Assembly (NCBI GenBank): GCA_016208855.1
Contig: JACQXF010000078.1
Coordinates: 3,491-67,490, forward strand
Reading direction: 5' to 3'
DNA: 64,000 bases
Source: Nitrospirota bacterium
Lineage (GTDB): Bacteria > Nitrospirota > Thermodesulfovibrionia > UBA6902 > DSMQ01
The notes under the pieces were generated by a model. That model saw nothing but the letters and a program-made list of their open reading frames with translations. It was not told the origin of the DNA and did not search any database. This document shows, piece by piece, positions 1-42,676 of the stretch (position 1 is its first letter; every line of letters begins with the position of its first letter). The position numbers and the translations under genes are program-made.

Positions 1-415
1 GCCATCTTGTAGAGAATGTCTTTATATAACCTATAAGAGCCTTCTTCTCATCCATGGATAGTTCTTTATGAGCCGGCATGAAGGACCTTGTTATGCCCAT
101 ATCCAGAATACGCATTAAGTCCTCCTCAGAAGGCAGGCATCCTGTGGATGTTGAACGGAACCTGAAAACTCCTGTTGTAAGATCCCTTGGGATAATCTCC
201 AGTATGCGCCCGCTCTTCTCTGATTTCTTCATAAGTCCTGCGGTAATGCCCTTGCCGTCGCCTTTTAGCCCATGGCATATTGCGCAACGCTCCTCGTAGA
301 CCTTTTTCCCTAAGTCAGCCTTGACATCAGCCGCGCCTGCATTTCCCGCAACAAAAAATGCTGCTATAAGAAGCGTGAGAAAAGATATTAATACAGCAGT
401 TTTAAAATTTTTCAT
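1..415 (-). CDS. Monoheme c-type cytochrome (class I-like), partial because it runs off the window start
   Basis: The reverse strand from ATG (complement of 413-415) encodes MKNFKTAVLISFLTLLIAAFFVAGNAGAAD..., with a signal peptide and a single CAICHG (CxxCH) heme motif. It is absent from the ORF track because no stop lies inside the window. It is co-directional with the downstream cytochrome genes. Confidence 0.55.
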   Translation of the reverse strand, partial: MKNFKTAVLISFLTLLIAAFFVAGNAGAADVKADLGKKVYEERCAICHGLKGDGKGITAGLMKKSEKSGRILEIIPRDLTTGVFRFRSTSTGCLPSEEDLMRILDMGITRSFMPAHKELSMDEKKALIGYIKTFSTRW

Positions 416-461
416 GAGTCCTTCCATTTCAACCCTTCCTTCTTAAAAAAATTCTTAATTC

Positions 462-1886
462 TTAGTTTTTAGCTGCTATCTTACTCTGCGAAAGAATCTT
501 CACATAAGAAACTATATCTGCCATATCCTGCTCTGAAAGCCCCACGCCTGCCTTGCCAAAAGGCACCATCGGCGTGCCTGTTCTTCCGTCACGGACTGTC
601 ACAGCTAAAAATTCCGGATCTGCAGACTGGGTCACGGGATTCCTCAGGTTTATCCCGAGAAAGCCTGCTCCTCCTTTGCCGTCTTTGCCATGACAAAGGG
701 CGCAGCGGATGTTATAAAGTGTTTCGCCGCGCTTTGTATCAGTCTTAAAGCCTGCAAAATTAAACCTGGGCGCCCCGCCTGCCGGCCTCTCTTTGGCTAT
801 ATAGCCGACTATCTTATCTATATCCTGCTCTGAAAGTCCTGCTGCAGACGGCTTCCATGACGTCATCTGCGTGCCCTCACGTCCTTCACTAACAGAGCTC
901 TTCAGAAATTTATTATCAGCAATTCTAAGAAACGCTGGATTCATAATCGCAGGGATTGTGCGGTTAAATATCTCGTCAAAATAACTCTCCTTGCCTGCGG
1001 TATGGCAGGCGACGCAGTACTTCTTATATAAAGCGTCGCCGTCAAGCTCTGCCTCAAGAGACGGCCTTATGCGCCTGTATTCTCTCGGCATCTCTGTTGA
1101 CGTTATAGTCAGCACATATGTTGCAAGTGCGTCTGCTTCTTCCTCATTAAGAATTACCTTCATCTCGCTCTCAGGGACAAGCGCCCTCGGGTCAAGGAAA
1201 TGCTCCTTATGCCATGTATATTGAGTAGCCTCTCCCTTTATATGCCTCATAGGAAAATAAATCCTTGGCTGTGAACCTATTCCGTCAAGTACCTTACCTA
1301 AAACGCCTCCTACACCATCAACCTTGTGGCAGCCCCTGCAGCCCTTCTCATTAAAGAGCTTTCTGCCCTTGACAACCTTATCTGCTCCGTTCTTCTCAAG
1401 CATATTATAGTCATGGCACTGCGCGCATGAGCTCTGAATATACTTAACAGGCACTATCGGATAGTCATAATGCGCGTCATGCTCTACGGCATGGGCGTCT
1501 TTTGTGGTGGTTACCCTGCCCTGCCCGCCGTGGCACGAGGTGCAGCCGAATCTTGCAATAGGGTGTTTATCAAGGTAATTACCGCTATGCGTTTTATACG
1601 GAACCGCTTCCTTTGCCATCATCGGGTTTTCAACCCCAATATGGCAGCTTATGCACCTGTCAGCACTGTTGAGTTTATCAACATATATCTGCTGAAGTTC
1701 AATCTTAAATGCCTTGGCCTTTGCCTTTATAGTCTCGTCTTTGGCATTTTTCATATAGAGCTCTTTATATTTAGCCTGATACTTCTTCCATTCAGGCGTA
1801 AATTCTTTGTAGCCGGCAATAAGGACAAATATTAAAAGAACAATTGAAGACCACATTAGCAGTCCGGAATAAAACCTTCTATTCAT
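462..1886 (-). CDS. Membrane-anchored hexaheme cytochrome c, the cytochrome c subunit of a Rieske/cyt b complex
   Basis: 474 aa with an N-terminal TM helix and six CxxCH motifs (CISCH, CTSCH, CAQCH, CRGCH, CVACH, CALCH). The last two sit in class-I-like domains. It is adjacent to and co-directional with cytochrome b. Confidence 0.8.
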   Translation of the reverse strand: MNRRFYSGLLMWSSIVLLIFVLIAGYKEFTPEWKKYQAKYKELYMKNAKDETIKAKAKAFKIELQQIYVDKLNSADRCISCHIGVENPMMAKEAVPYKTHSGNYLDKHPIARFGCTSCHGGQGRVTTTKDAHAVEHDAHYDYPIVPVKYIQSSCAQCHDYNMLEKNGADKVVKGRKLFNEKGCRGCHKVDGVGGVLGKVLDGIGSQPRIYFPMRHIKGEATQYTWHKEHFLDPRALVPESEMKVILNEEEADALATYVLTITSTEMPREYRRIRPSLEAELDGDALYKKYCVACHTAGKESYFDEIFNRTIPAIMNPAFLRIADNKFLKSSVSEGREGTQMTSWKPSAAGLSEQDIDKIVGYIAKERPAGGAPRFNFAGFKTDTKRGETLYNIRCALCHGKDGKGGAGFLGINLRNPVTQSADPEFLAVTVRDGRTGTPMVPFGKAGVGLSEQDMADIVSYVKILSQSKIAAKN

Positions 1887-1933
1887 TTTCCTCTCCTCAC
1901 CTCAATCCTTAATTTAAAATTTAAAATTTTGAG

Positions 1934-3496
1934 TTAATGAACAGGCCAGTCCTTCTTTGACCAGTAGAAATCCCAGTTCGGGCCTCTCAGCTCTGTGCCG
2001 ACATATGTGAGTATCACAAAACTGACTAAGAACATTACAAACATGGCTATTGCGCCCATCCTCGTTGAGCCTGTCTTATTAATTATCATTAAAGACCATG
2101 CTGCCACAAAGCCGACCCACAGTGTGCCAGGATTTATTGCAATAATGACTAACTGCGGCACATCAGGCCACCATGTCCTTATCCATCCAAAATTTACTAT
2201 GAATACAAGCACGCCAATAAGCGCCGCTGTGCCGACAATAAATGATAGAAAAGCTATAACCTTGCCCTGTGTGTTTGAAAACCAGACTCCCACATAGCCT
2301 TCTTCCCTGTCAAGATAGGGTATTAATGCAAGCGCCACCAATGCCAGCGTCGGAAGCGCAATACCGCCCATAAACGCAGAATAAGAGACAAGCTCCTGAA
2401 GCCCTAAGAAATACCATGGGGCCTTGGCAGGGTTTTCAGGGATAATGGGGTTAGCAAGCTCTCTAAGCGGCGCGTCTATATATAGTGAATATACAAACAT
2501 GCCCGCAAATGTAAGCATAAAGACCGCAAGCTCTGCCCACATAAGATTAGGCCAGCTTAAGACAGCGTTTTCAATGTCATTATTAACTGCAGGCGTTCTG
2601 CCCTTGGCAAGCTCCATAAGTCCGTATGTCTTGTTGGTTGGGAATAGCCCGCCTTTTTTCTGAGGCGGCGCAAGGAACTTCTCGTCAGAGGGCCTTGGCT
2701 CAAACTCTTCAGGCCTTGTAAGGCCGCCGTCTTTACGTATCCTCCAGAAGTGAATGCCGAGAAAGATAATGAGTATAACAGGCAGAAACATTACATGAAA
2801 GAAATGAACCCTCGGAAGCGTTGCCTTCCCCGGAACTGTGCCGCCCAAGAAAAGCTCCTTCTGTAATCCTCCAAAATCAAAGTACTTCGTTACCCCAAGG
2901 ATGTCTGTAATTTCCACCGGCGAGCCTGCGATATTTGCGCCGATAACCATTGCCCAGTATGCAAGCTGATCCCATGGAAGCAGGTATCCTGAGAAGTTCA
3001 GTATAAATACCAGGACCATAAGTATAATTCCAACAATCCAGTTGAACTCCCTGCCCTTTTTATATGAGCTGGTGAAGAATACCCTTGCCATGTGAAGCAT
3101 GACAAAGAGTATCATTCCCTCTCCGGCCCATTTATGAATATTTCTTATGGTGTTGCCGCCAAAGACAACATACTTTATGTCTTTTACGGTATTGAATGCA
3201 TTCTCAATGGAGGGGTTGTAATATATCATAAGAAAAACGCCTGATACGAATGCAAAGAAGAAGAGAAAAAGAGAGATAAGCCCCATGCCAAATGTGTAAG
3301 CAGGCCTCAGGGTATTTATATGTGTCTTGGCGCCCTGAAGGTGGAGAAAAAAGTTATTCACCATCACGGCGGCCTTTGTCTTATCAGAGTCAAGCGTCTT
3401 GCTTCTTAGGACAGTGTTAGGAAGAAAGTTTATTATATCTTTCAGGTTTCCTATAAACTTGCCTATGCCGTTTTTATTTGATTCGCTCATGATCAC
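1934..3496 (-). CDS. Cytochrome b (fused b6/subunit IV-like, 520 aa) of a Rieske/cytochrome b complex
   Basis: Multiple TM helices, conserved cytochrome-b heme-ligand His, and a LLPWDQLAYWA region. An AGGAG RBS precedes the ATG. Confidence 0.85.
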   Translation of the reverse strand: MIMSESNKNGIGKFIGNLKDIINFLPNTVLRSKTLDSDKTKAAVMVNNFFLHLQGAKTHINTLRPAYTFGMGLISLFLFFFAFVSGVFLMIYYNPSIENAFNTVKDIKYVVFGGNTIRNIHKWAGEGMILFVMLHMARVFFTSSYKKGREFNWIVGIILMVLVFILNFSGYLLPWDQLAYWAMVIGANIAGSPVEITDILGVTKYFDFGGLQKELFLGGTVPGKATLPRVHFFHVMFLPVILIIFLGIHFWRIRKDGGLTRPEEFEPRPSDEKFLAPPQKKGGLFPTNKTYGLMELAKGRTPAVNNDIENAVLSWPNLMWAELAVFMLTFAGMFVYSLYIDAPLRELANPIIPENPAKAPWYFLGLQELVSYSAFMGGIALPTLALVALALIPYLDREEGYVGVWFSNTQGKVIAFLSFIVGTAALIGVLVFIVNFGWIRTWWPDVPQLVIIAINPGTLWVGFVAAWSLMIINKTGSTRMGAIAMFVMFLVSFVILTYVGTELRGPNWDFYWSKKDWPVH

Positions 3497-3502
3497 TCCT
3501 TA

Positions 3503-4006
3503 TTAAGCAACTTTAAATTTTGTCCCCTTCTTTACTTCCTTGCCTGCGTCTACAATAACGTTGCCGTCTTCATGCATGCTCACCTCAAGCCATGGCAGCG
3601 GACGCGGCGCAGGGCCTCCTATGACTTTTCCGTCCTCATTATATTTTGAGCCGTGGCAAGGGCACTGAAAACCCCACTCAGTGGGATACACAATGCATCC
3701 AAGGTGCGTGCATATTGCTGATATGGCAAAAAGCCCTTCGTTGTCTGCAAATATAAATACCTTTTTATCATCAAGCTTCTTTATAGTGCCTACAGGGAAC
3801 TCCTCAGGCTTTCCTATCTTAAATTTATGCGACTCCTCGTAATGAACAGTAGCCTTTGTAAACCTGACAAGCCCCAAAACAGCAGCTAATGAGGATACGA
3901 CTGCCGTGGCAATGCCTGCAAGCCCCAAGAAATCCCTTCTTGATACGCCTTCCTCTTTTCCTTTTTTATCAGGGTCTCTATGTGCACAATACATATTGTT
4001 ACTCAC
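3503..4006 (-). CDS. Rieske [2Fe-2S] iron-sulfur protein with a Tat signal
   Basis: CTHLGCIVYP...CPCHGSKY box I/II motifs and a twin-arginine SRRDFLGLAG. GTG start with a GGAGG RBS. Overlaps the upstream gene by 8 nt. Confidence 0.85.
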   Translation of the reverse strand: MSNNMYCAHRDPDKKGKEEGVSRRDFLGLAGIATAVVSSLAAVLGLVRFTKATVHYEESHKFKIGKPEEFPVGTIKKLDDKKVFIFADNEGLFAISAICTHLGCIVYPTEWGFQCPCHGSKYNEDGKVIGGPAPRPLPWLEVSMHEDGNVIVDAGKEVKKGTKFKVA

Positions 4007-5816
4007 CTGCCCATACCTCCTTAAATAAAAATCTCTCCATTGTTATTGCATCAACAGGGCACCTCTTTGCACAGAGCCCGCACCTGATGCATCTGTCTTC
4101 ATCTTTTATGATTGCCGAACCCTCTCCAACAGGGTCCTTGCCATATCTGACTTTATATAACTTAGCCAATGTCTCATCGCCCTTTATGCGGTCAAGGCTT
4201 ACAAGCCTGAAACAGTATTCAGGGCAGATATCAGCGCATCCGCCGCAGAGTATGCATTTGTCGCCGTCAAATATGGTATTGACAGCGCAGTTCAGGCATC
4301 TGCCTCCCTGCTCTTCTGCCATGCCTTTTTCAAAGCCTTTCTCAACAACATTAAATATGCTCTTTACCCTGTCAACTGCAGGCGTAGCCGGCACATGTTC
4401 TCTATGTAATTTCTCATAATCCCTGTACTGCGGGACCTCATTATCAGGAAGCTCTTTATGCAATTCATACTTATTTAGCGTGAGCTTCTGTTTGCTTATA
4501 TGCCCGTGTATTGCTATTGCTGCCTTCTTCCCGCTTGCCACCGCATCTATAACAAGCCTTGGCCCATAGGCAAGGTCCCCTGCAACAAAAAGCCCGGCCA
4601 AAGATGTAGAGACCTTATCCTCAGAGACCTTTATCATCCCTCTCTCTGTCATCTCAACATTGAGTCCGCAATTTTCAAGGAATGAAAAATCATATGCCTG
4701 GCCTATTGCAAAAAATACCGTGTCAGCAGGAATGGTTACTGTATCTGCCTCATCATACCTTGGGTTAAACCTTCCCTCAGAGTCAAATACAGAGATACAT
4801 CTCTTAAATGTCATTGACTTCACATTGCCGGACTCATCAGCGTCTACCCTGTGAGGGCCGTAGCTGTTAACCCTGTCAATTCCCTCTTCCTCGCCTTCCT
4901 CTATCTCAATCTTATCAGCAAGCATCTGCTCACGCGTCTCTATGCAGACAAGGGAAACATCCCTTACGCCCTTCTGCCTCATTGATGTCCTTGCCACATC
5001 ATAGGCAACGTTGCCTCCGCCTATAACAACTATCTTTGAGCCTATATTAACTTCTTTGCCTGTAAAAACATCTCTTAAGAAATCAACGCCTCCAAGGACT
5101 CCCTTATACTGAGCGCCTTCAATAGGAAGCATCCTTGACTTTTTTGCGCCCACTGCCAAAAGCACCGCAGCAGATTCATCGTATAGTTTTTTGAGCGGAA
5201 TATCCTTTCCTACCTGAACGCCGAGCTTTATCTCAACGCCCAATGCCTTTATTGCATCAATCTCTGCCTGAAGTATCTCTCTTGGAAGCCTGTAAGGGGG
5301 GATACCGACAGAGCACATACCGCCTGCTATATTTTCCATCTCATAAATCACAGGCTTATACCCCATCAGGGCTAATTCATGCGCACACGCAAGCCCTGCA
5401 GGGCCTGCGCCGATTATGGATATTGGCTTTGATGTGCCTTTGGCAATGCCTACGATTCCCGTGCCTTCGGTCTTGAATTTATTTGTGAAGTTATCTGCAA
5501 AGCCCTTCTTATCCTTATAAACCTCCGGGCCGTACTTCTCTGTAACAAAGCCTTTCAGCGCCCTTATAGATATAGACTCATCTATTGCGCCGCGTCTGCA
5601 CGCAGCTTCGCAAGGCGCGGCACAGATCCTGCCGCATATGGAAGCAAGGGGATTTGGCAGCCGCGCTATCCAGTAGGCCTTCTCGTAATCGCCCTCTGAT
5701 ATTGCCCTTACATAGCCGCGGGAGTCAGTGTTTACAGGACAACCTGTCTGACACTTTATATTTTGTCTCCAGAAGTTGTAATCAGGAATTACTACATGAA
5801 ATGTCTGCTTAGACAT
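3999..5816 (-). CDS. GltD/NfnB/SudA-like NAD(P)H-dependent FAD/Fe-S oxidoreductase with a C-terminal 2x[4Fe-4S] ferredoxin domain
   Basis: N-terminal Cys cluster typical of the glutamate synthase small subunit (CQTGCP...ICGRICAAPCEAACRR). Two Rossmann motifs (GAGPAGL, GGGNVAYD). C-terminal CILCGGCADICP and CIRCGLCAKRCP. First gene of the cytochrome operon. Confidence 0.8.
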   Translation of the reverse strand: MSKQTFHVVIPDYNFWRQNIKCQTGCPVNTDSRGYVRAISEGDYEKAYWIARLPNPLASICGRICAAPCEAACRRGAIDESISIRALKGFVTEKYGPEVYKDKKGFADNFTNKFKTEGTGIVGIAKGTSKPISIIGAGPAGLACAHELALMGYKPVIYEMENIAGGMCSVGIPPYRLPREILQAEIDAIKALGVEIKLGVQVGKDIPLKKLYDESAAVLLAVGAKKSRMLPIEGAQYKGVLGGVDFLRDVFTGKEVNIGSKIVVIGGGNVAYDVARTSMRQKGVRDVSLVCIETREQMLADKIEIEEGEEEGIDRVNSYGPHRVDADESGNVKSMTFKRCISVFDSEGRFNPRYDEADTVTIPADTVFFAIGQAYDFSFLENCGLNVEMTERGMIKVSEDKVSTSLAGLFVAGDLAYGPRLVIDAVASGKKAAIAIHGHISKQKLTLNKYELHKELPDNEVPQYRDYEKLHREHVPATPAVDRVKSIFNVVEKGFEKGMAEEQGGRCLNCAVNTIFDGDKCILCGGCADICPEYCFRLVSLDRIKGDETLAKLYKVRYGKDPVGEGSAIIKDEDRCIRCGLCAKRCPVDAITMERFLFKEVWAGE

Positions 5817-5918
5817 AACTCCTACTTAATTAAAATGCCCTTATAAGATTTAAGACAGAAAGAAGTTTAGACAACCTGCCCGCCTCTTTTCAGTAACTTA
5901 AGTCACAATTGTAAACCC

Positions 5919-6602
5919 CTATTGCTTTGTTGTCAAGAAACTCTTTAATTTTTCTTTGTCTATTTTAAGCCCCCTGATAGTGCTCTCCATAATAACCTTT
6001 TCCTTTTTCAGCCTTGACATTGTCCTTGAGACGACCTCCCTGACTGTGCCTGCCATAGATGCTATGTCGTGGTGGGTTACTGAAAGATATGCTATACCGT
6101 CTTCCTCAGGCTGTCTCTCCTCTGCAAGCCTCAAAAGAACCAAAGCTACCCTCTGCTCAACGTCCTTAAATGTAATGTCCTCTATAATGCCTGAGAGATA
6201 CTTTATCCTTCTGCAAAGCCCCTTTAGTATCTTAAAGCCTGTTTCGCTCATCCCGTTCTCAATGACTTCTTTAAAGTTCTCCTCCGGTATGGCTACAACG
6301 GTTGTGTTCTCCACACCCGACCTGCCGCCTGTAAGAAGAGGCGCACAGCAAAAATAATCGCCCTCTTTAAGCATCTTTATTATCAACTCTCTGCCGTCTT
6401 TGGATGTCTTAAATAATTTTATTGCGCCTTCCCTGATAATAAAGAAAAACTTAATCTCGTCTGACTCTTTAAACAGTACGTCATTCTTTGCTATCCTTTT
6501 AAGGCTTGCCTTTTGACCTAAGACTATGAGGTCTTCATCTCCAAGCCCTGAAAGACATGGCAGGATACGCAGTTGATAGTTTATCTCAGCAACTGAATTC
6601 AT
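5919..6602 (-). CDS. Crp/Fnr-family transcriptional regulator
   Basis: cNMP-binding beta-barrel followed by a C-terminal HTH (VREVVSRTMSRLKKE). Located immediately upstream of the cytochrome operon. Confidence 0.75.
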   Translation of the reverse strand: MNSVAEINYQLRILPCLSGLGDEDLIVLGQKASLKRIAKNDVLFKESDEIKFFFIIREGAIKLFKTSKDGRELIIKMLKEGDYFCCAPLLTGGRSGVENTTVVAIPEENFKEVIENGMSETGFKILKGLCRRIKYLSGIIEDITFKDVEQRVALVLLRLAEERQPEEDGIAYLSVTHHDIASMAGTVREVVSRTMSRLKKEKVIMESTIRGLKIDKEKLKSFLTTKQ

Positions 6603-6730
6603 AGGTAAATTAAGATAACTATTAATCCTAATTATGTCAACGCCAGCCTGATAGCCTGCCAGCCTGCTATATAAAACATCTGTCTATCAAGAATCGCTTA
6701 ATTTAGGTTAACAGTAATTATCAAGCCAAT

Positions 6731-8134
6731 TTAAATCATCCAGTACGGCAGCAAATAAATCAGAGTCTTATCTTCTTCAATTATGTCTGCGTCCTCAAAT
6801 CTTCCGACAAGCACGCCGACTTTTTCTTTCTCCTTTACAAGAAAACTCTTGATTCCTTTCAAATGTTTTGTCTGAATCTTTTTATCGCTTTTAATTTCTA
6901 TTGGCAGGAGCCTCTCGGGCGTATAAACAACAATATCAACCTCTTCTTTTGTCTTGGTCCGCCAGTAGTGAAGCCTCGACTCGCGCTTCATGGAAGACAT
7001 AATCGTATTGAACTTCTCTACAATTGCATTTTCCAAAATAATGCCATACTGCCCAAGTTTTTCTATCTGAGAAATACTGCCTAAATCAAGCAGGCTGTTT
7101 CTAATGCCGAGGTCTGTAAAATACACCTTCGGCGTCTTTAGTATTTCGCTTCTGATATTCCTTGAATATGTTGTAAGGTTTTTGATAATAAATGTCTTTT
7201 CAAGAAGCACGGAGTATCTCTTTACAGTGTCTACTGTTATTTCCAGTTGAGATGCGATATTTGAATAATTGAGAAGGTCTCCTATTCTTGATGCCAGCAG
7301 TTCCATAACCTTTTGGTAAACCCAGAGCTTATCTTCTTTTACAAGATTTCTGATGTCCTGCTCAAGATACGTATTTCTGTAATTTCTAAGGAGTATCTGT
7401 TTCTTTTCCGTATCTTTAGCAAGAACGACTGCCGGCAACCCTCCAGAAACCATGTATTCTTCAAAGAGTTTCTGTATTCTTTGTTTATAGGGCATTATTT
7501 CAGCCTGATATTTCTTTAAAGCCTTTTTATCCGGAGTTGTTTCTCCAAAAATAAACTGCCATATATTTTTCTTATCAGGGGGTGTAAATCCATGCCCTCT
7601 GAATATCTCAGCCTCAGAAAAAGGAGGAACAGGCACGGACAATACCCTGCCCGCAAGGCTTTCTTTTATCTGCGCTTTCAGTTCAAGGGAAGATGAGCCT
7701 GTCAGTATCCATTTGACAGGAAGCTTTAAATCATACAGGGACTTTATGTATTCAATAAAACCGGGAAGCTTTTGGACTTCATCAATAAAGACATAAATAA
7801 GTTTTTTCTGACGCTGAACTTCTTCTCCGAGGAATCTTTCAATTATTGTCAGGAACTTGTCAAAGGATGCAGAAAGCTCCTGTCTGAGCGAAAGGTCATC
7901 AAATGTAAAATAGAAAATCCTCTCCGGCTGAATATCTCTCTTAAGGAGATCTGAAATGAGCTGAAATACAAGGGTGCTTTTACCTGTCTGTCTTAATCCA
8001 AGAAGTGAAAGTATCTCCTTTTCTTTGATGAGTCTTAAAGCCATATCGTGTATATCACGAGCGATAATGTCTGGGGGTAAAGCAAAGGCGCCGCCTCTCC
8101 ACGCATTATAACTATAAAAAAGCCTCTCGTCCAA
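6731..8134 (-). CDS. AAA+ ATPase, COG1373 family (AAA_14 + DUF4143)
   Basis: Walker A GLRQTGKST, Walker B FIDEVQ. C-terminal DUF4143-like region. One of five paralogs in 7 kb. Confidence 0.75.
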   Translation of the reverse strand: MDERLFYSYNAWRGGAFALPPDIIARDIHDMALRLIKEKEILSLLGLRQTGKSTLVFQLISDLLKRDIQPERIFYFTFDDLSLRQELSASFDKFLTIIERFLGEEVQRQKKLIYVFIDEVQKLPGFIEYIKSLYDLKLPVKWILTGSSSLELKAQIKESLAGRVLSVPVPPFSEAEIFRGHGFTPPDKKNIWQFIFGETTPDKKALKKYQAEIMPYKQRIQKLFEEYMVSGGLPAVVLAKDTEKKQILLRNYRNTYLEQDIRNLVKEDKLWVYQKVMELLASRIGDLLNYSNIASQLEITVDTVKRYSVLLEKTFIIKNLTTYSRNIRSEILKTPKVYFTDLGIRNSLLDLGSISQIEKLGQYGIILENAIVEKFNTIMSSMKRESRLHYWRTKTKEEVDIVVYTPERLLPIEIKSDKKIQTKHLKGIKSFLVKEKEKVGVLVGRFEDADIIEEDKTLIYLLPYWMI

Positions 8135-8331
8135 AACTATATACCTCTCTAAACTTTCTTAAGATAATTTAGAGTATACTATAATAATTTATCAAAAGCA
8201 ACTTACTGTCAGGGGGAAATTAGCAGATAAACTTCTTATGCTGGACATATATATGCCTTGTATTTTAGCCAAAATTTAGCTATAATCACCCTGTATTTTA
8301 GCCATATCAATACTGAAAGGCGGGGATTTAA

Positions 8332-9660
8332 ATGCGCAGGGATATTGAGAAGGACTTAATTTTATGGAAATCACAAAAAGAGCGCTATCCTTTGATAATC
8401 AGAGGCGCTCGGCAAGTAGGTAAAAGTTATCTTATTGAGACATTCGGCAGGGCGCATTTTCAAAATCTTGTTGTTGTCAACTTTGAGTTTCAGCCCCAAT
8501 TAAAGGACTGTTTTAAATCTCTTGACCCATTTGAAATAGTCAATAAACTCCAGATGCTTCTGGGCACACAGATAAGAGCGGATAATACCCTGCTTTTTTT
8601 TGATGAGATACAAGAATGTCCACAGGCAATAATGTCTCTTAGGTATTTTAAGGAGAAGATGCCAGCGCTGGCTGTTATAGCAGCGGGCTCACTCCTTGAA
8701 TTTGCCATGAGAAGCCCAGACTTTCGGATGCCTGTCGGAAGAATTCATTTCCTTTATTTAGAGCCTTTGTCCTTTTCTGAATATCTTGACGCTACAGGCA
8801 ACGAGAAATTAAGGCAATTCCTCTCAGAAGTAAGTTTGACAGACGCAATTGATGATGTTATCCATAAGAAACTCCTTGAACTGCTTCGCATATATCTTAT
8901 TGTCGGCGGAATGCCCGCGGCGCTCAAGGAATATTTGGCAACAAAGGATTTGATGAACTGTCAAAGGATTCAGACAGCGCTTTTACAGATTTACAGAAGC
9001 GATTTTGGAAAGTATGCAAAGACTTCTCAGCATAAATACTTAGAAAAGGTGTTTAATGCCGCTCCTCGTTTAGCAGGGCAAAGGATAAAGTATTCAAGCA
9101 TTGACCCTGACACGCACTCAAGAGACTTGAAGAATGCGCTGAACTTGCTTGCCCTTGCAGGCATAGTTAAGCCGATATATTTAACAAAGGCTTCGGGGCT
9201 TCCACTTGGGGCGCAGATAAACGAGCAGAAATTAAAATTGAATTTTCTTGACGTCGGGCTAATGCAAAACGCCTGCGGCTTGCAAGGGCTGTTAATTACA
9301 GAAAATGATTTTATGCAGATAAATGCAGGCGCTGTCGCTGAACAATTTACAGGACAAGAGATAGCGGCATATTCTGACAAGCATCAAGAGAGGAGCCTTT
9401 ATTTTTGGGCGAGGGAGAAAAAGGGCAGCATGGCAGAGGTTGATTATGTCATAAATATCGGCGCAGATATTATTCCTGTAGAAGTGAAGTCTGGCAAGGA
9501 AGGCTGGCTTAAATCATTAAGGATGTTCATTGAGGAGAAAAACTCAAGGTTAGGGATACGGCTGTCTCAAGACAAGTTGTCCTATTATGATAAAATACTT
9601 TCCATCCCGCTTTATATGGCAGAGCAGATGACGAGATTAACAGAAGGTTTTCTAAAGTAA
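8332..9660 (+). CDS. AAA+ ATPase, COG1373 family (AAA_14 + DUF4143)
   Basis: Walker A GARQVGKSY, FFDEIQ. Divergent paralog of the neighbouring ATPases. Confidence 0.75.
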   Translation: MRRDIEKDLILWKSQKERYPLIIRGARQVGKSYLIETFGRAHFQNLVVVNFEFQPQLKDCFKSLDPFEIVNKLQMLLGTQIRADNTLLFFDEIQECPQAIMSLRYFKEKMPALAVIAAGSLLEFAMRSPDFRMPVGRIHFLYLEPLSFSEYLDATGNEKLRQFLSEVSLTDAIDDVIHKKLLELLRIYLIVGGMPAALKEYLATKDLMNCQRIQTALLQIYRSDFGKYAKTSQHKYLEKVFNAAPRLAGQRIKYSSIDPDTHSRDLKNALNLLALAGIVKPIYLTKASGLPLGAQINEQKLKLNFLDVGLMQNACGLQGLLITENDFMQINAGAVAEQFTGQEIAAYSDKHQERSLYFWAREKKGSMAEVDYVINIGADIIPVEVKSGKEGWLKSLRMFIEEKNSRLGIRLSQDKLSYYDKILSIPLYMAEQMTRLTEGFLK

Positions 9661-9766
9661 AGGAATTTATTTTCGTCACTGCACAATACTGAAGGCGCTT
9701 TCTGCTAACTCTTCTGCCATTTGTCAGTTAGTCCTTATTATTCATAAATTATTATTATTTTTATTA

Positions 9767-9904
9767 AGGAAGCTGGCAGGGTATAGTTTTGAGCGGATTT
9801 TTTTGCTGATAAGTTCAGACAGGATGTCTGAACAAGCAAACGCCTCGCAAACGCACAGGATGTGCGTTGAGAATGAGCCGAAAAATTATACCCTGCCAGC
9901 TTCC
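9767..9904. repeat. 138-bp element bounded by perfect 18-bp terminal inverted repeats, containing two hairpins with identical GGA loops
   Basis: The arm ggaagctggcagggtata at 9767-9784 is the reverse complement of 9887-9904. Internal hairpins are ttcagaca-gga-tgtctgaa and aacgcaca-gga-tgtgcgtt. Confidence 0.6.
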
Positions 9905-10098
9905 TTATAGTTTATGAATAATCTGGGTTAGATATGTGTCTACGTTTCTCGGAAAATAAAAACGCACCTGCCTCCAACTCACTTGACTACGAAATACCTG
10001 AAAGAGAGAGATAATATCAGCGAAGAAGTCGAAAAAATATGCAGTTTGTTAAGGAAGGAGCAATTAATGTTAATAAGTAAGCCCGACCCCATGCTCCC

Positions 10099-10809
10099 AT
10101 GCAGGTCGTGTTTGAAGAGTATTTAGAGAGGGGAGGTTTTCCCAATCTGTTTGGCATCAAAGAGCCTCTGCTTTGGAAGCGGCTTGCGAGAGAAGATATT
10201 GTTGAGAAGGTCATCTACAGGGATATGGTTGAGTTATATGATATAAAGAAACCCGAGGTGCTTGAAAGGCTTTTTTTGTATTTGACCGGCATAACATCCC
10301 AAATCCTGAGCGTCTCCAATATTGCAAACTCACTCGGCCTCAGCCGTGAATACACTGAAAAATATCTTTATTATCTGGAACAGGCGATTCTCATAAAGAG
10401 GCTAAATAAATACGCTAAATCGATTGGAAAGAGCATCAGAAGTTCTGAAAAGGTTCATGTTTTGGACAGCGGATTGATAAATGCATTTTCAAGAATTGAA
10501 ACAGGGCATGCAGTGGAGACAGTTGTTGCAAGCCACCTTTTAAGAGCAAAGGAGGCTGAAATATATTATTGCAGGGAGAGATATGAGGTTGATGTGGTGA
10601 TGGCAATTGGCAGGAAGCTATATCCAATAGAGATTAAATATAAAGACAATATTACAAAGCAAGATTTGAGAGGAGTTGAGGCTTTTTGCAAGTCGTTCAG
10701 TCCGAAAAAAACGATAATAGTAAGCCGTGATGTTTTTAAAGAGGAGACATTAAACGGCTGCAAAGCATTGTTTATTCCTGCATGGTTGTTTGTTTTGCTC
10801 ATAGGATAA
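10099..10809 (+). pseudogene. Truncated COG1373/DUF4143 ATPase lacking the N-terminal P-loop domain
   Basis: The 236 aa match only the C-terminal portion of the neighbouring ATPases (YRDMVELYDIKKPE..., DUF4143 part). There is no Walker A. The upstream 9.66-10.1 kb holds the IR element and no intact N-terminus. Confidence 0.55.
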
Positions 10810-11011
10810 AACAATGAGCATGAAAAAACGACGAATGGAACAATTTGATAATTAACGACTTATCCCCGTAAGATGGCACTTAATCCACCCAAACTTAAGC
10901 CGTCCAGTGGCTTTAGAAGTTTGCCTATTTACAGGCATAATCTGTGATCTATTACGGCACAAATTGTAAATGGCATTGACAATTTGTGCTTAAAAGGGTA
11001 GCATATTTTCC

Positions 11012-12163
11012 ATGATTAATAGAAATGCCCATAACGCCCTAAAACGCTTGGCGCGCGGTTTCCCTGTAGTGACGCTTACCGGCCCTCGTCAGTCAGGCAA
11101 AACAACACTTGCAAAGATGGCATTCCCTACCAAACCCTATATTTCTCTTGAGGACCCTGATATACGAAGCATGGCAGAGGAAGACCCCCGCGGACTTCTG
11201 TCCAAATTTCCTGATGGGGCCGTATTGGATGAGGTGCAGCGTGCCCCGCATCTCTTCTCTTACCTACAGACACATATAGATGCTGATATGCGTCCAGGCA
11301 TGTTTGTGCTGACAGGCTCACAACAGTTCGGCCTGCTGTCAGGCATAAGTCAGTCCCTTGCCGGAAGAGTTGGGATGGTGCAGCTTCTTCCATTTTCCAT
11401 CAGCGAACTGAAGGCTGCCAAACGCCTTCCAGCAACCCTTGATGAACTATTATTCAGAGGTCTCTATCCTCCAATTTATGACCGTGACATTATGCCAGGC
11501 GACTGGTTTGCGGGCTACATGACCACTTATATAGAGAGAGATGTTAGGCAGCTTATCAATGTGCGTGACATTTCCACCTTTCAGAGGTTTTTAAAGATGT
11601 GCGCTGCGCGGATAGGACAACTGCTTAACCTTTCTTCTCTTGCTGCTGACTGCGGCATTACCCACAACACGGCATCTGCATGGATATCTGTGTTGGAGGC
11701 GAGTTATATTGTATGCCTGCTCAGGCCGCATCACCGCAACTTCAATAAACGCCTTGTCAAGTCGCCCAAGCTGTACTTTGTGGACGCTGGATTTGCGGCA
11801 TGGTTGCTTGGAATCAGAGAGGCAGAATATATCTCTTTTCATGCCCAACGAGGCGCACTATTTGAAAATCTTGTAATAACTGAGTTTATAAAGGAATGTT
11901 TCAATCAGGGACGTCAGTCCAATCTCTTTTTCTGGCGCGACAGCAAAGGCCTGGGAATTGATCTGATATTGGAAGAAGGCGACAACCTAAAGCCTGTTGA
12001 GATCAAATCAGGACAGACTATTGTCCCGGAATTTCTTACCGGCTTGCAGAAATGGTCTGTCTTATCCGGAAATCCAAAACGTCCTGCTATGCTTATATAT
12101 GGCGGAGAGAGGGAACTTACTAAAGGGAACATTGCCATAATGCCATGGAAGAAATTGCCGTGA
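11012..12163 (+). CDS. AAA+ ATPase, COG1373 family (AAA_14 + DUF4143)
   Basis: Walker A GPRQSGKTT, LDEVQ. Confidence 0.75.
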   Translation: MINRNAHNALKRLARGFPVVTLTGPRQSGKTTLAKMAFPTKPYISLEDPDIRSMAEEDPRGLLSKFPDGAVLDEVQRAPHLFSYLQTHIDADMRPGMFVLTGSQQFGLLSGISQSLAGRVGMVQLLPFSISELKAAKRLPATLDELLFRGLYPPIYDRDIMPGDWFAGYMTTYIERDVRQLINVRDISTFQRFLKMCAARIGQLLNLSSLAADCGITHNTASAWISVLEASYIVCLLRPHHRNFNKRLVKSPKLYFVDAGFAAWLLGIREAEYISFHAQRGALFENLVITEFIKECFNQGRQSNLFFWRDSKGLGIDLILEEGDNLKPVEIKSGQTIVPEFLTGLQKWSVLSGNPKRPAMLIYGGERELTKGNIAIMPWKKLP

Positions 12164-12171
12164 CTCCTCTC

Positions 12172-12543
12172 TTATTTAGACATCAACAAACTGCCCAGAT
12201 TCTTCGTCTTATATACTGAGACGAAGATGAAAAGAAAAATGGCCGATAATCCTTTTTCAAAGCCTCCGCCAAGACTTCCGAGCATCTTTTTTGAGAGCGC
12301 AAGGGCAAGGCTTTCTTCAAGCGAAAGATTTGGCTTTGAAAGGCTGTATCCTTCGCTAAATACATAGCTGTCCTTCTGCCTGTCATAGACAAGAGGAAAG
12401 CCTGCCACCTGCAGTGTCTGTATATAGCGGTATGCCGTCCTCTCACTTACCTCAAGGTCGTTCATGAGGGTCTTGGATGTAACCTTCTCTTTTCCGTCAA
12501 TTTTATTGAGTATTGTTATCAGGGAATCAAACTTATAAGACAT
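12172..12543 (-). pseudogene. Truncated HTH/WYL-type transcriptional regulator (N-terminal DeoR-like HTH only)
   Basis: LMNDLEVSERTAYRYIQTLQVAGFPLVYDRQKDSYVF resembles the HTH_11 + WYL N-terminus. The ORF is only 123 aa with a non-homologous tail. Confidence 0.4.
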
Positions 12544-12622
12544 GGTGTATCCTCCGTATCTAATAATCTTAGAAGGATATTACCATATCTTACTGACAAC
12601 AGCCTGTCAGGAGGGATGGATG

Positions 12623-42601: not shown

Positions 42602-42676
42602 TATCAACGTATCAGAGTACCAAAGTTTTTATTATGGCTCTCTGACACTTTGATACTCAAAGCTGAGGAACAGGGC

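What the first reader, a model, noticed from the sequence alone, without database searches (positions are those of the whole stretch)
1..6602. Rieske/cytochrome b complex operon with a hexahaem cytochrome c and a GltD/NfnB-like NAD(P)H:FAD/Fe-S subunit, under a Crp/Fnr regulator
One minus-strand operon encodes the following in order:
- a GltD-like flavoprotein with a C-terminal 2x[4Fe-4S] ferredoxin domain;
- a Rieske protein with a Tat signal;
- a fused cytochrome b;
- a membrane-anchored hexahaem cytochrome c;
- a monohaem cytochrome c.
Rieske/cyt b complexes that recruit an NAD(P)H oxidoreductase subunit and multihaem cytochromes are known mainly from anammox Planctomycetes and nitrite oxidisers, where quinol-driven NAD(P)+ reduction or electron bifurcation has been proposed. 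Seeing this architecture in a dsr-carrying anaerobe is unusual. It suggests a quinol:NAD(P)+ or quinol:cytochrome module linked to sulfur metabolism.
Basis: partly seen in the sequence, partly recalled or inferred. Interest (0 to 1): 0.6.

Follow-up and report, generated by a model that had tools for sequence, protein, structure and literature searches.

The report
Flavoprotein-bearing Rieske/cytochrome b complex beside nosZ
This is a respiratory quinol-oxidising membrane complex carrying an extra cytoplasmic NAD-type flavoprotein, of the kind known from anammox bacteria; here it sits next to the nitrous-oxide reductase gene of a sulfur-cycling Nitrospirota bacterium, and it turns out to be common in many anaerobic phyla.

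Summary
The genes are there as described. On the minus strand lie a GltD/NfnB-like flavoprotein, a Tat-signal Rieske protein, a fused cytochrome b, a membrane-anchored hexahaem cytochrome c and a further c-type cytochrome, all tightly packed.

Corrections:
- The last gene is cut by the window edge. It is a 263-aa dihaem cytochrome.
- A near-identical contig shows the cluster runs on into a second dihaem cytochrome and a Tat-type (clade I) nosZ.
- The arrangement is not unusual. The flavoprotein is adjacent in 43 of 49 informative related loci from about nine phyla.
- The core pairs with nosZ or with periplasmic type II DMSO-reductase-family (Nxr/pNar-like) enzymes, not with dsr genes.

The closest characterised relative is the Kuenenia R/b-3 complex. 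This family differs from it:
- cytochrome b is fused;
- the haem cn cysteine is absent;
- the NADPH "YRR" motif is replaced by C(I/L)E;
- the c-type subunits and the partner enzyme are different.

A roughly 40-residue cytoplasmic linker in cytochrome b is present exactly where the flavoprotein gene is present.

Most likely the complex is a menaquinol:cytochrome c oxidoreductase feeding NosZ. Its low-potential branch is wired to NAD(H). NAD+ reduction by quinol bifurcation is plausible but unproven. I class it as a new variant of a known kind.

The parts
5919..6602 (-). Crp/Fnr-family transcription regulator (227 aa). It has no N-terminal FNR-type cysteine cluster.
   Evidence: Pfam cNMP_binding, HTH_Crp_2 and Crp. 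NCBIfam gives only sub-threshold hits to CRP, NtcA and FixK. The sequence has 4 Cys, none in an FNR-like N-terminal cluster. Adjacency to the operon recurs only in L001 and L007.
5908..5936 (-). Promoter-like site (TTGACA, 17 nt spacer, TACAAT) upstream of the flavoprotein gene. It overlaps the 3' end of the crp gene.
   Evidence: Best promoter-like match in 1-8400, 11 of 12 positions. This is a consensus match only. No TTGAT-N4-ATCAA box lies nearby.
3999..5816 (-). Cytoplasmic GltD/NfnB-like FAD flavoprotein (605 aa). It has an N-terminal Fer4_20 Fe-S domain and a C-terminal 2x[4Fe-4S] ferredoxin domain. At the pyridine-nucleotide site, 'LVCIETRE' (4929-4952) replaces the NADPH-type 'YRR'.
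   Evidence: Pfam Fer4_20, Pyr_redox_2 and Fer4. NCBIfam PRK12771, 399 bits. PDB hits to NfnB-type subunits: 9bov 4e-81 and 5jca 7e-63. It is 35% identical to the Kuenenia R/b-3 flavoprotein over 601 aligned positions. All Fe-S cysteines are conserved in 42-43 of 43 homologues, and C(I/L)E is present in 39 of the 42 relatives. No transmembrane segment.
3503..4006 (-). Rieske [2Fe-2S] subunit (167 aa): Tat signal SRRDFL, one transmembrane anchor, boxes CTHLGC and CPCHGSKY ('SY' type).
   Evidence: Pfam Rieske and UCR_Fe-S_N. Best PDB hit is 9rk4, which I equate with Kuste4569 from its shared CPCHGSKY box. The gene overlaps the flavoprotein gene by 8 nt. Measured SY-type potentials are +303 mV for Kuste4569 and +335 mV for the SF-type Kustd1480 (PMC12954380); the correlation SY = 300-350 mV is from PMC3509893.
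1934..3496 (-). Fused cytochrome b (520 aa; the annotated form is 518 aa, starting at 3490). It consists of a b6-like four-helix part plus a subunit-IV-like part with five helices. The Qo motif is APWY (2411-2422). His52 lies at 3341-3343. Gly70 replaces the haem-cn cysteine.
   Evidence: Pfam Cytochrome_B. NCBIfam ExtP and ExtQ match below their cut-offs. Alignment to b6 structure 1vf5. BLASTP to Kuenenia cyt b gives 39% and to subunit IV 44%. Conservation across the 50 family sequences aligned: the four haem His 50/50, His52 49/50, Gly or Ala at the cn position 50/50, APWY 50/50. About nine transmembrane helices.
2576..2716 (-). Cytoplasmic-side linker of cytochrome b (residues 261-307, including KKGGLFPTNKTYGLMELAKGRTPAV). 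It is present only in flavoprotein-linked family members and is a candidate docking element for the flavoprotein.
   Evidence: The RKDGG-to-APWY spacing is 91-116 aa in all 44 flavoprotein-linked genes. It is 58-61 aa in all 5 alignable flavoprotein-less genes, which sit at three separate places in a neighbour-joining tree.
462..1886 (-). Membrane-anchored hexahaem cytochrome c (474 aa): an N-terminal transmembrane helix, a three-haem multihaem module, then three class-I cytochrome c domains.
   Evidence: Six CxxCH motifs. Pfam Cytochrom_C x3, Cytochrome_CBB3 and weak multihaem families. Six haems in 37 of 48 homologues. Only the first ~140 residues resemble the Kuenenia hexahaem protein, at 30% identity.
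1..427 (-). The first 142 codons of a 263-aa periplasmic dihaem cytochrome c, cut by the window edge. Beyond the window come a terminator-like hairpin, a paralogous dihaem cytochrome c, and a Tat-type nosZ.
   Evidence: Translation with a signal peptide and CAICH. The full gene and downstream genes are on L056, 99.8% identical to the window. NosZ passes TIGR04244 at 830 bits against a cut-off of 625. Hairpin fold.

Best explanation
The operon encodes a five-subunit Rieske/cytochrome b complex of the 'APWY' / anammox R/b-3 type. Its subunits are a cytoplasmic flavoprotein, a Rieske protein, a fused cytochrome b, a hexahaem cytochrome c and a dihaem cytochrome c.

What the complex does (about 0.8 likely; inferred from anatomy and gene neighbourhood):
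- It oxidises menaquinol at an APWY-type Qo site.
- It passes one electron through a high-potential SY-type Rieske centre and the hexahaem and dihaem cytochromes.
- That electron goes to the Tat-type nitrous-oxide reductase encoded immediately downstream.
- In sister loci the same core serves periplasmic Nxr/pNar-like molybdoenzymes instead.

What the flavoprotein does (about 0.4 likely; inferred by analogy with the unproven Kuenenia proposal):
- The second electron crosses the membrane through the two b haems, and possibly through an extra haem b held by the conserved His52.
- It then enters the four Fe-S clusters and the FAD of the flavoprotein, which docks on a family-specific cytoplasmic linker of cytochrome b.
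- There it reduces NAD+. The sequence motif suggests NAD rather than NADP.
- In this way the very exergonic reduction of N2O would pay for making NADH from quinol without reversed complex I.

Shown here: gene content, order, overlaps, cofactor motifs, conserved synteny and the linker/flavoprotein covariation. Inferred: the electron path, its direction and the nucleotide specificity.
For: Anatomy:
- Domains and motifs of all subunits.
- Topology: the flavoprotein has no signal or transmembrane segment; the Rieske protein has a Tat signal; the cytochromes c are anchored or secreted.
- The genes are translationally coupled: the flavoprotein and Rieske genes overlap by 8 nt.

Homology:
- Matches to each core subunit of a Kuenenia R/b-3 locus.
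- The flavoprotein's Fe-S cysteines are conserved.
- His52 aligns with Kuste4571 His43, the proposed ligand of an extra haem b (PMC12954380).

Context:
- The flavoprotein is adjacent to the Rieske/cyt b genes in 43 of 49 informative loci from about nine phyla.
- A ~40-aa cytoplasmic linker is present in 44 of 44 flavoprotein-linked cytochromes b and absent in 5 of 5 flavoprotein-less ones, at three separate tree positions.
- nosZ follows the cluster in the window's own strain (L056) and in 8 related loci.
- Type II DMSO-reductase-family enzymes are inserted in, or adjacent to, the core in 24 loci.
- In flavoprotein-less relatives the multihaem subunit is fused to the molybdoenzyme gamma subunit. 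This shows a direct partnership.

Literature:
- The SY Rieske box correlates with potentials of +300 to +350 mV (PMC3509893); Kuste4569 was measured at +303 mV (PMC12954380).
- Electron transfer from bc complexes through cytochrome c to NosZ is the accepted route (PMC11539149).
Against: - No biochemistry exists for any APWY-clade complex (PMC4122944). The Kuenenia NAD(P)H-generation scheme is itself a hypothesis.
- Flavoprotein-less family members keep His52 and about 60-65% identical cytochromes b. The b subunit can therefore presumably run a normal Q cycle with a quinone-reducing site. With such a site, electron flow NADH to quinone is thermodynamically easier than quinol to NAD+.
- The haem cn cysteine used in the Kuenenia model is absent here.
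- A terminator-like hairpin and a 285-nt gap separate the complex's operon from the second cytochrome and nosZ. Co-regulation with nosZ is therefore inferred from neighbourhood only.
- The organism's quinone type is not known from the window.
- The NADH-versus-NADPH call rests on one motif.
Confidence: 0.5

Rival explanations
1. Same complex, opposite direction in the low-potential branch. The flavoprotein is an entry point. NADH reduces FAD, then the Fe-S chain, then the N-side haem b, and finally menaquinone at the quinone-reducing site. The quinol is re-oxidised at the Qo site of the same complex. The result is a compact NADH-to-N2O chain, comparable to FNR bound to cytochrome b6f in cyclic electron flow.
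For: All steps are downhill (NADH -320 mV to menaquinone about -70 mV; established values). Flavoprotein-less relatives with very similar cytochromes b imply a working quinone-reducing site. The C(I/L)E motif suggests NADH, the catabolic carrier. Hauser et al. discuss this option for Kuenenia (PMC12954380).
Against: It would waste the energy that a proton-pumping complex I conserves, the argument made in PMC12954380. The high-potential SY Rieske box paired with a presumably low-potential quinone fits a design that pushes the b haems very low (PMC12954380, PMC3509893). The partners are consistently very high-potential acceptors, which the simple entry-point model does not require.
Confidence: 0.27
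2. The flavoprotein is not a subunit. It is a soluble cytoplasmic NAD(P)H-dependent Fe-S flavoenzyme (a GltD, NfnB or SudA-like enzyme) that merely shares an operon. The rest is an ordinary dedicated quinol:cytochrome c reductase for NosZ.
For: It has no membrane anchor. Its closest solved relatives are soluble enzymes. Some family members work without it.
Against: The 8-nt gene overlap with the Rieske gene is conserved. Adjacency holds in 43 of 49 loci across distant phyla despite swapping of the periplasmic partner. There is perfect covariation with a cytoplasmic linker in cytochrome b. The homologous Kuenenia protein is reported to co-migrate with its complex (de Almeida 2016, as cited in PMC12954380 and PMC5600118). 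No NfnA or GltB partner gene is present in the locus.
Confidence: 0.08
3. One reading: a quinol:NAD(P)+ or quinol:cytochrome module that serves dissimilatory sulfur metabolism in a dsr organism.
For: The window carries dsrC, dsrT, dsrM and dsrK. DsrMK-type complexes exchange electrons with the menaquinone pool (established knowledge). Sulfur oxidation could therefore be the ultimate electron source for the quinol used here.
Against: The dsr genes are about 54 kb away and no sulfur gene is in or next to the operon. In 33 clusters (32 related loci plus the window's own strain, L056) the physically linked partner is nosZ or a type II DMSO-reductase-family enzyme, never a dsr, apr or sox gene. Sulfite and APS couples are too low in potential to pull a Rieske-type bifurcation (established potentials).
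Confidence: 0.07
4. Reverse operation, as proposed for the APWY clade in general. Electrons from a high-potential periplasmic donor enter through the cytochromes c and the Rieske protein and are pushed uphill into the quinone pool, with NADH or the proton-motive force helping.
For: Kao and Hunte suggested that APWY complexes run in reverse (PMC4122944). In sister loci the partner resembles nitrite oxidoreductase, which can act as an electron donor.
Against: NosZ, the partner in this window's strain, is only a terminal reductase. Summing one electron from nitrite (+430 mV) and one from NADH (-320 mV) onto menaquinone is net uphill (established potentials).
Confidence: 0.05

Closest known systems
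Kuenenia stuttgartiensis Rieske/cyt b complexes R/b-3 (Kuste4569-4574) and R/b-2 (Kustd1480-1485)
   Same: - A GltD/NfnB-like Fe-S flavoprotein is encoded inside the operon, 35% identical over its full length with the same domain order.
- Closest Rieske structure is 9rk4, with the same CPCHGSKY box.
- The APWY Qo motif and the flanking ENPAKAPWYFLGLQE stretch are identical.
- A five-helix subunit-IV part is present.
- The histidine equivalent to His43 is conserved.
- A membrane-anchored hexahaem cytochrome c follows.
- The partner is a high-potential N-oxide reductase.
(PMC12954380)
   Different: - Cytochrome b and subunit IV are fused through a ~47-aa linker.
- The CxGG cysteine for haem cn is Gly or Ala.
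- The flavoprotein has C(I/L)E where Kuenenia has YRR.
- The hexahaem protein is homologous only in its first ~140 residues and ends in three class-I domains.
- Additional dihaem cytochromes are present.
- The partner is NosZ or a type II DMSO-reductase-family enzyme. No HAO-like octahaem protein was found in any locus.

Cytochrome b6f / Firmicute b6c complexes, including FNR bound to b6f
   Same: The cytochrome b fold and the four haem histidines are b6-like (E 2e-32 to 1vf5). The Rieske protein is b6f-like. The idea of a pyridine-nucleotide flavoenzyme on the N side of a b6-type complex is shared.
   Different: There is no haem cn cysteine. The protein is not split. The Qo motif is APWY rather than PEWY or PDWY. 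Multihaem cytochromes replace cytochrome f. The flavoprotein is an NfnB/GltD-type Fe-S protein, not a plant-type FNR.
bc complex to cytochrome c to NosZ route of denitrifiers, and the Rieske/cytochrome bc requirement of Wolinella N2O respiration
   Same: A quinol-oxidising Rieske/cyt b complex supplies NosZ through c-type cytochromes. The NosZ here is the Tat-type clade I enzyme, with NosR- and NosD-like genes downstream in relative L002. (PMC11539149 citing Hein et al. 2017)
   Different: Here the Rieske/cyt b complex is encoded beside nosZ, carries a flavoprotein, and has its own hexahaem and dihaem carriers in place of a general bc1 plus soluble c550 or pseudoazurin.
Haloarchaeal Rieske/cyt b-pNar gene cluster
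   Same: A Rieske/cyt b complex is genetically embedded with a periplasmically oriented Nar-type (type II DMSO-reductase-family) enzyme and is proposed to feed it (PMC3509893). Sister loci of this family have the same logic.
   Different: The cytochrome b lineage is different. There is no flavoprotein and no multihaem c subunit. In this window the partner is NosZ.
NfnB / GltD / StnC-type flavoproteins
   Same: An N-terminal two-cluster Fe-S domain (Fer4_20) plus FAD and NAD(P) Rossmann domains. E values are 4e-81 to 3e-43 against solved examples.
   Different: There is an extra C-terminal 2x[4Fe-4S] ferredoxin domain. No NfnA or GltB partner is encoded nearby. The YRR NADPH motif is lost. The protein is encoded with, and apparently docked on, a membrane cytochrome b.
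'APWY clade' / subfamily G (and clade G') of cytochrome b; Geobacter ExtP/ExtQ
   Same: The Qo motif, the taxonomic spread and the co-occurrence with NAD(P)-binding Fe-S oxidoreductases match the published descriptions. The long forms are described as lying 'in large conserved operons of unknown function' (PMC4122944, PMC5600118). ExtP and ExtQ are the best NCBIfam hits.
   Different: The ExtP and ExtQ scores (217 and 39.5 bits) are below the curated cut-offs (290 and 150). I could not check the published trees for this exact clade. The papers read here do not mention the nosZ link or the linker/flavoprotein covariation.

Membership tests
Rieske/cytochrome b (bc1/b6f) superfamily | Rieske protein with both cluster-binding boxes (CxH...CxxH) and export to the P side | tested here: met
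   CTHLGC and CPCHGSKY boxes, SRRDFL Tat motif, one transmembrane helix
Rieske/cytochrome b (bc1/b6f) superfamily | Cytochrome b with four histidine ligands for haems bL and bH, and a PxWY-type Qo motif | tested here: met
   His121, His135, His234 and His249 are invariant in 50/50 sequences. The motif is APWY in 50/50
Anammox-type NAD(P)-oxidoreductase-containing Rieske/cyt b complexes (Kuenenia R/b-2 and R/b-3) | A GltD/NfnB-like Fe-S flavoprotein encoded within the Rieske/cyt b operon | tested here: met
   8-nt overlap with the Rieske gene. 35% identity over 601 aligned positions to the Kuenenia sp. homologue of Kuste4570. Conserved in 43 of 49 loci
Anammox-type NAD(P)-oxidoreductase-containing Rieske/cyt b complexes (Kuenenia R/b-2 and R/b-3) | Split cytochrome b6 plus subunit IV, with the CxGG cysteine for haem cn | tested here: not met
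   A single 520-aa fused protein. The cn position is Gly70 (Gly or Ala in 50/50), against Cys in Kuenenia
Anammox-type NAD(P)-oxidoreductase-containing Rieske/cyt b complexes (Kuenenia R/b-2 and R/b-3) | N-terminal histidine of cytochrome b proposed to bind an extra interfacial haem b (Kuste4571 His43) | tested here: met
   His52 aligns with it and is conserved in 49/50 sequences. It is also conserved in flavoprotein-less members, so it is not specific to flavoprotein coupling
Anammox-type NAD(P)-oxidoreductase-containing Rieske/cyt b complexes (Kuenenia R/b-2 and R/b-3) | The flavoprotein physically assembles with the membrane subunits, and NAD(P)+ is reduced by quinol bifurcation | not testable with these tools
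   Only indirect support: covariation of a cytoplasmic linker with flavoprotein presence. The function is unproven even in Kuenenia (PMC12954380)
Anammox-type NAD(P)-oxidoreductase-containing Rieske/cyt b complexes (Kuenenia R/b-2 and R/b-3) | HAO-like octahaem partner (R/b-3) | tested here: not met
   tblastn with the Kuenenia HAO-like protein found no match in any of the loci. The partners are NosZ or type II DMSO-reductase-family enzymes
Cytochrome b6f | Haem cn, a split b6/subunit IV, and cytochrome f | tested here: not met
   No cn cysteine, a fused protein, and multihaem plus class-I cytochromes c in place of cytochrome f
NfnB / GltD small-subunit flavoproteins | Fer4_20 two-cluster domain plus FAD and NAD(P)H Rossmann domains | tested here: met
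   Pfam PF14691 and PF07992 above cut-offs. PDB hits 5jca, 4ylf and 2vdc
NfnB / GltD small-subunit flavoproteins | NADPH-type YRR motif and a cognate NfnA or GltB partner | tested here: not met
   YRR is replaced by CIE (39 of the 42 relatives have C(I/L)E). No NfnA or GltB gene is in the locus. All NCBIfam equivalogs score below their cut-offs
Clade I (Tat-dependent) NosZ | Passes the TIGR04244 equivalog cut-off and carries a twin-arginine signal | tested here: met
   830 bits against a cut-off of 625. RRGFLKF signal. The gene lies just outside the window, on L056, a 99.8%-identical contig. The clade II and clade III models score lower
FNR-type oxygen sensors within Crp/Fnr | N-terminal cysteine cluster for a [4Fe-4S] centre, and a TTGAT-N4-ATCAA box at target promoters | tested here: not met
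   No N-terminal cysteine cluster. No box within one mismatch near 5817-5960, or within two mismatches in the intergenic regions of L056. Crp/Fnr superfamily membership itself is met
Geobacter ExtP/ExtQ (selenite/tellurite reduction operon cytochrome b) | NCBIfam equivalog cut-offs | tested here: not met
   ExtP 217 bits against 290. ExtQ 39.5 bits against 150

The most novel reading that the evidence does not exclude
This family is a general, proton-motive-force-independent 'reverse electron transport' device outside anammox bacteria. It would be a quinol-bifurcating Rieske/cyt b complex in which reduction of N2O (or nitrate, in sister loci) pulls one electron and drives the other through the b haems and a docked Fe-S flavoprotein onto NAD+. 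That would let sulfur- or hydrogen-oxidising autotrophs in Nitrospirota, Desulfobacterota, Acidobacteriota and other phyla make NADH directly from the quinone pool. N2O respiration would then be coupled to NADH production.
Probability: 0.35. Interest if true: 0.8.

Novelty: new variant of a known kind. Interest (0 to 1): 0.5.

Why it matters
The function of flavoprotein-bearing Rieske/cytochrome b complexes has been open since the Kuenenia genome. No member of the APWY clade has been characterised.

This work shows three things:
- A fused, haem-cn-less, probably NADH-type version is widespread in non-anammox anaerobes.
- It is hard-wired to nitrous-oxide reductase or to periplasmic nitrate/nitrite-type molybdoenzymes.
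- A specific cytochrome b linker tracks the presence of the flavoprotein.

This gives the bifurcation hypothesis a much broader test bed, with simple substrates (N2O, nitrate).

If the hypothesis holds, two consequences follow:
- The way energy and reducing-power budgets of N2O-consuming and sulfur-cycling subsurface bacteria are modelled would change.
- A second quinone-based electron-bifurcation mode would be added to bioenergetics.

If it fails, the locus is still a useful marker: a dedicated electron-supply module for NosZ in Thermodesulfovibrionia.

Tried and rejected
- Sulfur link. The dsr genes in the window are 54 kb away, and no sulfur genes flank any related locus. Rejected.
- Clade II or clade III (lactonase-type) NosZ. 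I considered these because of Nitrospirota reports (PMC13477213). The clade I model passes its cut-off; the other two score 504 and 202 bits against cut-offs of 625 and 700. Rejected.
- ExtP/ExtQ membership. Scores are below the cut-offs. Rejected.
- Crp/Fnr control. A search for TTGAT-N4-ATCAA found nothing near either promoter region, and the counts did not exceed chance. Crp adjacency is not conserved. Left open.
- HAO-like partner as in Kuenenia. None found in any locus.
- Look-up of the annotated cytochrome b (P0001) to extend the contig failed. The hexahaem protein worked instead.
- The scan for terminators missed the hairpin after the dihaem cytochrome gene because its loop is 9 nt. Folding supports a 10-bp stem with a U-rich tail, but the z-score is only -1.8.
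- ten Brink et al. 2013 and Kartal et al. 2013 are not held in the library. Whether they already list this exact fused clade with its flavoprotein could not be checked.
- Four literature searches found no paper linking a flavoprotein-bearing Rieske/cyt b complex to nosZ. Absence from this library is not proof of absence.
- Structure prediction was not run. The tool folds single chains only and returns no coordinates, so it could not test docking.

Full report
**Observation**

The minus strand of window 1-6602 carries, in order:
- a Crp/Fnr-family regulator (5919-6602);
- a 605-aa GltD/NfnB-like flavoprotein (3999-5816) with an N-terminal Fer4_20 domain, FAD and NAD(P) Rossmann domains, and a C-terminal 2x CxxCxxCxxxCP ferredoxin domain;
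- a Rieske protein (3503-4006) with an SRRDFL Tat motif and CTHLGC / CPCHGSKY boxes;
- a 520-aa fused cytochrome b (1934-3496);
- a hexahaem cytochrome c with an N-terminal membrane anchor (462-1886; CxxCH at residues 78, 115, 154, 183, 291, 395);
- a further cytochrome c that starts at 427 and runs off the window.

The junctions are -8, +6, +47 and +34 nt, and no credible terminator lies between the genes. The best promoter-like site in the region (11 of 12 matches) lies between crp and the flavoprotein gene.

**Beyond the window edge**

A contig from a public sequencing run (L056) encodes exactly the same hexahaem protein. It is 99.8% identical to the window over 3089 bp. It shows three things.
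- The 'monohaem' gene is a 263-aa dihaem cytochrome c.
- This gene is followed by a hairpin with a U-rich tail and a 285-nt gap.
- Next come a paralogous 264-aa dihaem cytochrome and a 620-aa NosZ.

The NosZ has an RRGFLKF twin-arginine signal. It passes the curated model for Tat-dependent (clade I) nitrous-oxide reductase at 830 bits against a cut-off of 625. The clade II and lactonase-type clade III models fall short.

In the closest species-level relative (L002; cytochrome b 81% identical) the same order continues into a split NosR and a NosR-C::NosD fusion.

**Related loci**

A scan of one genome per species found 52 loci that encode this fused cytochrome b. They come from Nitrospirota (Thermodesulfovibrionia, Magnetobacteriaceae, one Nitrospiraceae), Desulfobacterota, Acidobacteriota, Planctomycetota, Myxococcota, Latescibacterota, Omnitrophota, Deferribacterota-labelled and Chloroflexota MAGs.

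tblastn mapping shows the order flavoprotein, Rieske, cytochrome b, hexahaem cytochrome in the great majority. The flavoprotein gene is adjacent in 43 of 49 loci where the flank is long enough to judge.

It is equally clear that the arrangement is common rather than unusual in this kind of organism.

**Variable partners**

The conserved core is combined with different periplasmic modules.
- The dihaem cytochromes plus nosZ-nosR-nosD, in 8 loci and in the window's own strain.
- An Nxr/pNar-like type II DMSO-reductase-family enzyme (alpha, beta, haem-b gamma, NarJ-like chaperone). It is inserted between cytochrome b and the hexahaem gene in 14 loci and follows the hexahaem gene in one.
- A second type II DMSO-reductase-family enzyme after the hexahaem gene, in six Acidobacteriota and Myxococcota loci.

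In three flavoprotein-less Thermodesulfovibrio-like loci the multihaem subunit is fused to the gamma subunit of such a molybdoenzyme. That is direct evidence that the c-type subunit of this complex partners these enzymes.

On a neighbour-joining tree of cytochrome b, nos-linked and molybdoenzyme-linked loci interleave, so the partner module has been swapped repeatedly.

No dsr, apr or sox gene flanks any locus. In the window itself dsrC, dsrT, dsrM and dsrK lie about 54 kb away, among housekeeping genes. The sulfur-metabolism reading is not supported.

**Relation to the anammox complexes**

The window's Rieske protein finds the Kuenenia Rieske structure 9rk4 as its best solved relative (E 1e-25). 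Both share the CPCHGSKY box; this shared box is the basis on which I equate 9rk4 with Kuste4569. I retrieved the R/b-3 locus of a Kuenenia species (L054) and compared each subunit.

| Subunit | Identity to Kuenenia counterpart |
|---|---|
| Flavoprotein | 35% over 601 aligned positions, same domain order |
| Rieske | 38% |
| Cytochrome b, N-terminal part | 39% to cytochrome b |
| Cytochrome b, C-terminal part | 44% to the five-helix subunit IV |
| Hexahaem cytochrome | 30%, first ~140 residues only |

Across 50 family sequences the four b-haem histidines and the APWY Qo motif are invariant. His52 is conserved in 49 of 50. It aligns with Kuste4571 His43, which Hauser et al. (PMC12954380) propose binds an extra interfacial haem b.

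There are clear differences.
- Cytochrome b is fused.
- The b6 Cys35 / CxGG position is Gly or Ala in all 50 sequences and Cys in Kuenenia, so covalent haem cn is not expected.
- The flavoprotein carries C(I/L)E in 39 of 42 relatives (CIE in the window). Kuenenia, NfnB and related structures carry the NADPH-type YRR there. By the usual Rossmann-fold rule this suggests NADH rather than NADPH. That is an inference.
- The distal cytochromes differ.
- No HAO-like protein occurs in any locus.

**Evidence that the flavoprotein is a subunit**

The distance from RKDGG (end of the b6-like part) to APWY is 91-116 residues in all 44 flavoprotein-linked cytochromes b. It is 58-61 residues in all five alignable flavoprotein-less ones. 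The difference is one block, window residues 261-307, which lies on the cytoplasmic side between helix D and the subunit-IV part.

The flavoprotein-less genes sit at three separate positions in the tree. This covariation, together with the conserved 8-nt overlap with the Rieske gene, argues that the flavoprotein docks on cytochrome b. It is still indirect evidence.

**Mechanism**

The topology is as follows.
- Cytoplasmic side: the flavoprotein.
- Periplasmic side: the Rieske head, the hexahaem and dihaem cytochromes, and NosZ.

The accepted electron route to NosZ runs from a bc-type complex through cytochrome c (PMC11539149). A dedicated quinol-to-NosZ supply line is therefore the well-supported part of the explanation. 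I put it at about 0.8.

For the flavoprotein I favour the Kartal/Hauser scheme, in which the low-potential electron from quinol oxidation passes through the b haems and four Fe-S clusters to FAD and reduces NAD+. Three points support it.
- The Rieske box is the SY type associated with +300 to +350 mV (PMC3509893; +303 mV measured for Kuste4569, PMC12954380).
- All partners are very high-potential acceptors.
- The flavoprotein fold is one whose Fe-S clusters operate at very low potential in Nfn enzymes (established knowledge).

I give this step only about 0.4, for three reasons.
- It is unproven even in Kuenenia.
- Haem cn is missing here.
- Flavoprotein-less relatives with very similar cytochromes b, and the same His52, imply a functional quinone-reducing site. 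That would make the opposite direction, NADH to quinone, the easier reaction.

That opposite direction is the main rival, at 0.27.

**Prior knowledge and novelty**

Published work already covers several pieces.
- The anammox complexes are well described.
- Kao and Hunte defined an uncharacterised 'APWY clade' spanning these phyla (PMC4122944).
- Baymann et al. placed Kuenenia, Solibacter, Nitrospira, Desulfococcus and Thermodesulfovibrio cytochromes b in the same region of the tree (PMC3509893).
- Dibrova et al. noted that subfamily G cytochromes b co-occur with NAD(P)-binding Fe-S oxidoreductases 'in many other cases'. They also noted that long forms (clade G') lie in large conserved operons of unknown function (PMC5600118).
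- Tat-type NosZ and NxrA are reported as prevalent in Thermodesulfovibrionia (PMC11033732).

I found no paper connecting the flavoprotein-bearing complex to nosZ, or describing the linker covariation or the loss of YRR. Two key reviews were not available.

I therefore class the finding as a new variant of a known kind, of moderate interest. The claims of rarity and of a sulfur link were wrong. Control by Crp/Fnr remains untested: adjacency recurs in only two other loci (one of them a strain variant of the window), and no FNR-type box was found.

Noticed in passing
window 6731-13909: Five paralogous AAA_14/DUF4143 ATPase genes in a row, on both strands: 6731-8134 (-), 8332-9660 (+), 10099-10809 (+, lacks the ATPase domain), 11012-12163 (+) and 12623-13909 (-). 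They lie directly upstream of the crp gene, in a lower-GC stretch (0.36-0.43).
   Followed up: partly
L032:11432-13213 (also L031 and L033): In flavoprotein-less Thermodesulfovibrio-like loci the pentahaem cytochrome c of the Rieske/cyt b complex is fused to the haem-b gamma subunit (EB_dh) of a type II DMSO-reductase-family enzyme. The alpha and beta genes of that enzyme lie upstream of the Rieske gene.
   Followed up: partly
L002:16764-20378: NosR is split. A 398-aa protein covers the N-terminal FMN-binding half. The C-terminal NapH-like half is fused to NosD in an 804-aa protein.
   Followed up: no
L015:9033-9968 and L026:9032-9967: Candidatus Magnetobacterium loci carry two tandem Rieske genes (63% and 47-48% identical to the window's) between the flavoprotein and cytochrome b genes.
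   Followed up: no
L037, L041, L051 (Planctomycetota, Omnitrophota): The c-type subunit is enlarged to 9-10 CxxCH motifs through extra class-I-like repeats. L039 (Latescibacterota) has no detectable homologue of the hexahaem protein and instead carries a 780-aa ORF with no family match.
   Followed up: no
L022:5365-6603 and L022/L027 flavoproteins: Two Desulfobacterota loci keep the NADPH-type YRR motif in the flavoprotein and carry a long insertion before it. L022 has a second, distant GltD-like gene upstream. In L027 the flavoprotein gene lies downstream on the opposite strand.
   Followed up: no
window 59967-63617: dsrC, a dsrT-like gene (RsbRD_N domain), dsrM (NarI-like) and dsrK (Fe-S) form a plus-strand cluster that runs towards the window end. 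A DDE transposase fragment lies at 55207-55575.
   Followed up: partly
window 40489-43582 and 35613-37751: A three-gene 2-oxoacid:ferredoxin oxidoreductase and an ADP-forming acetyl-CoA synthetase-like gene. These fit a ferredoxin-based anaerobic carbon metabolism.
   Followed up: no
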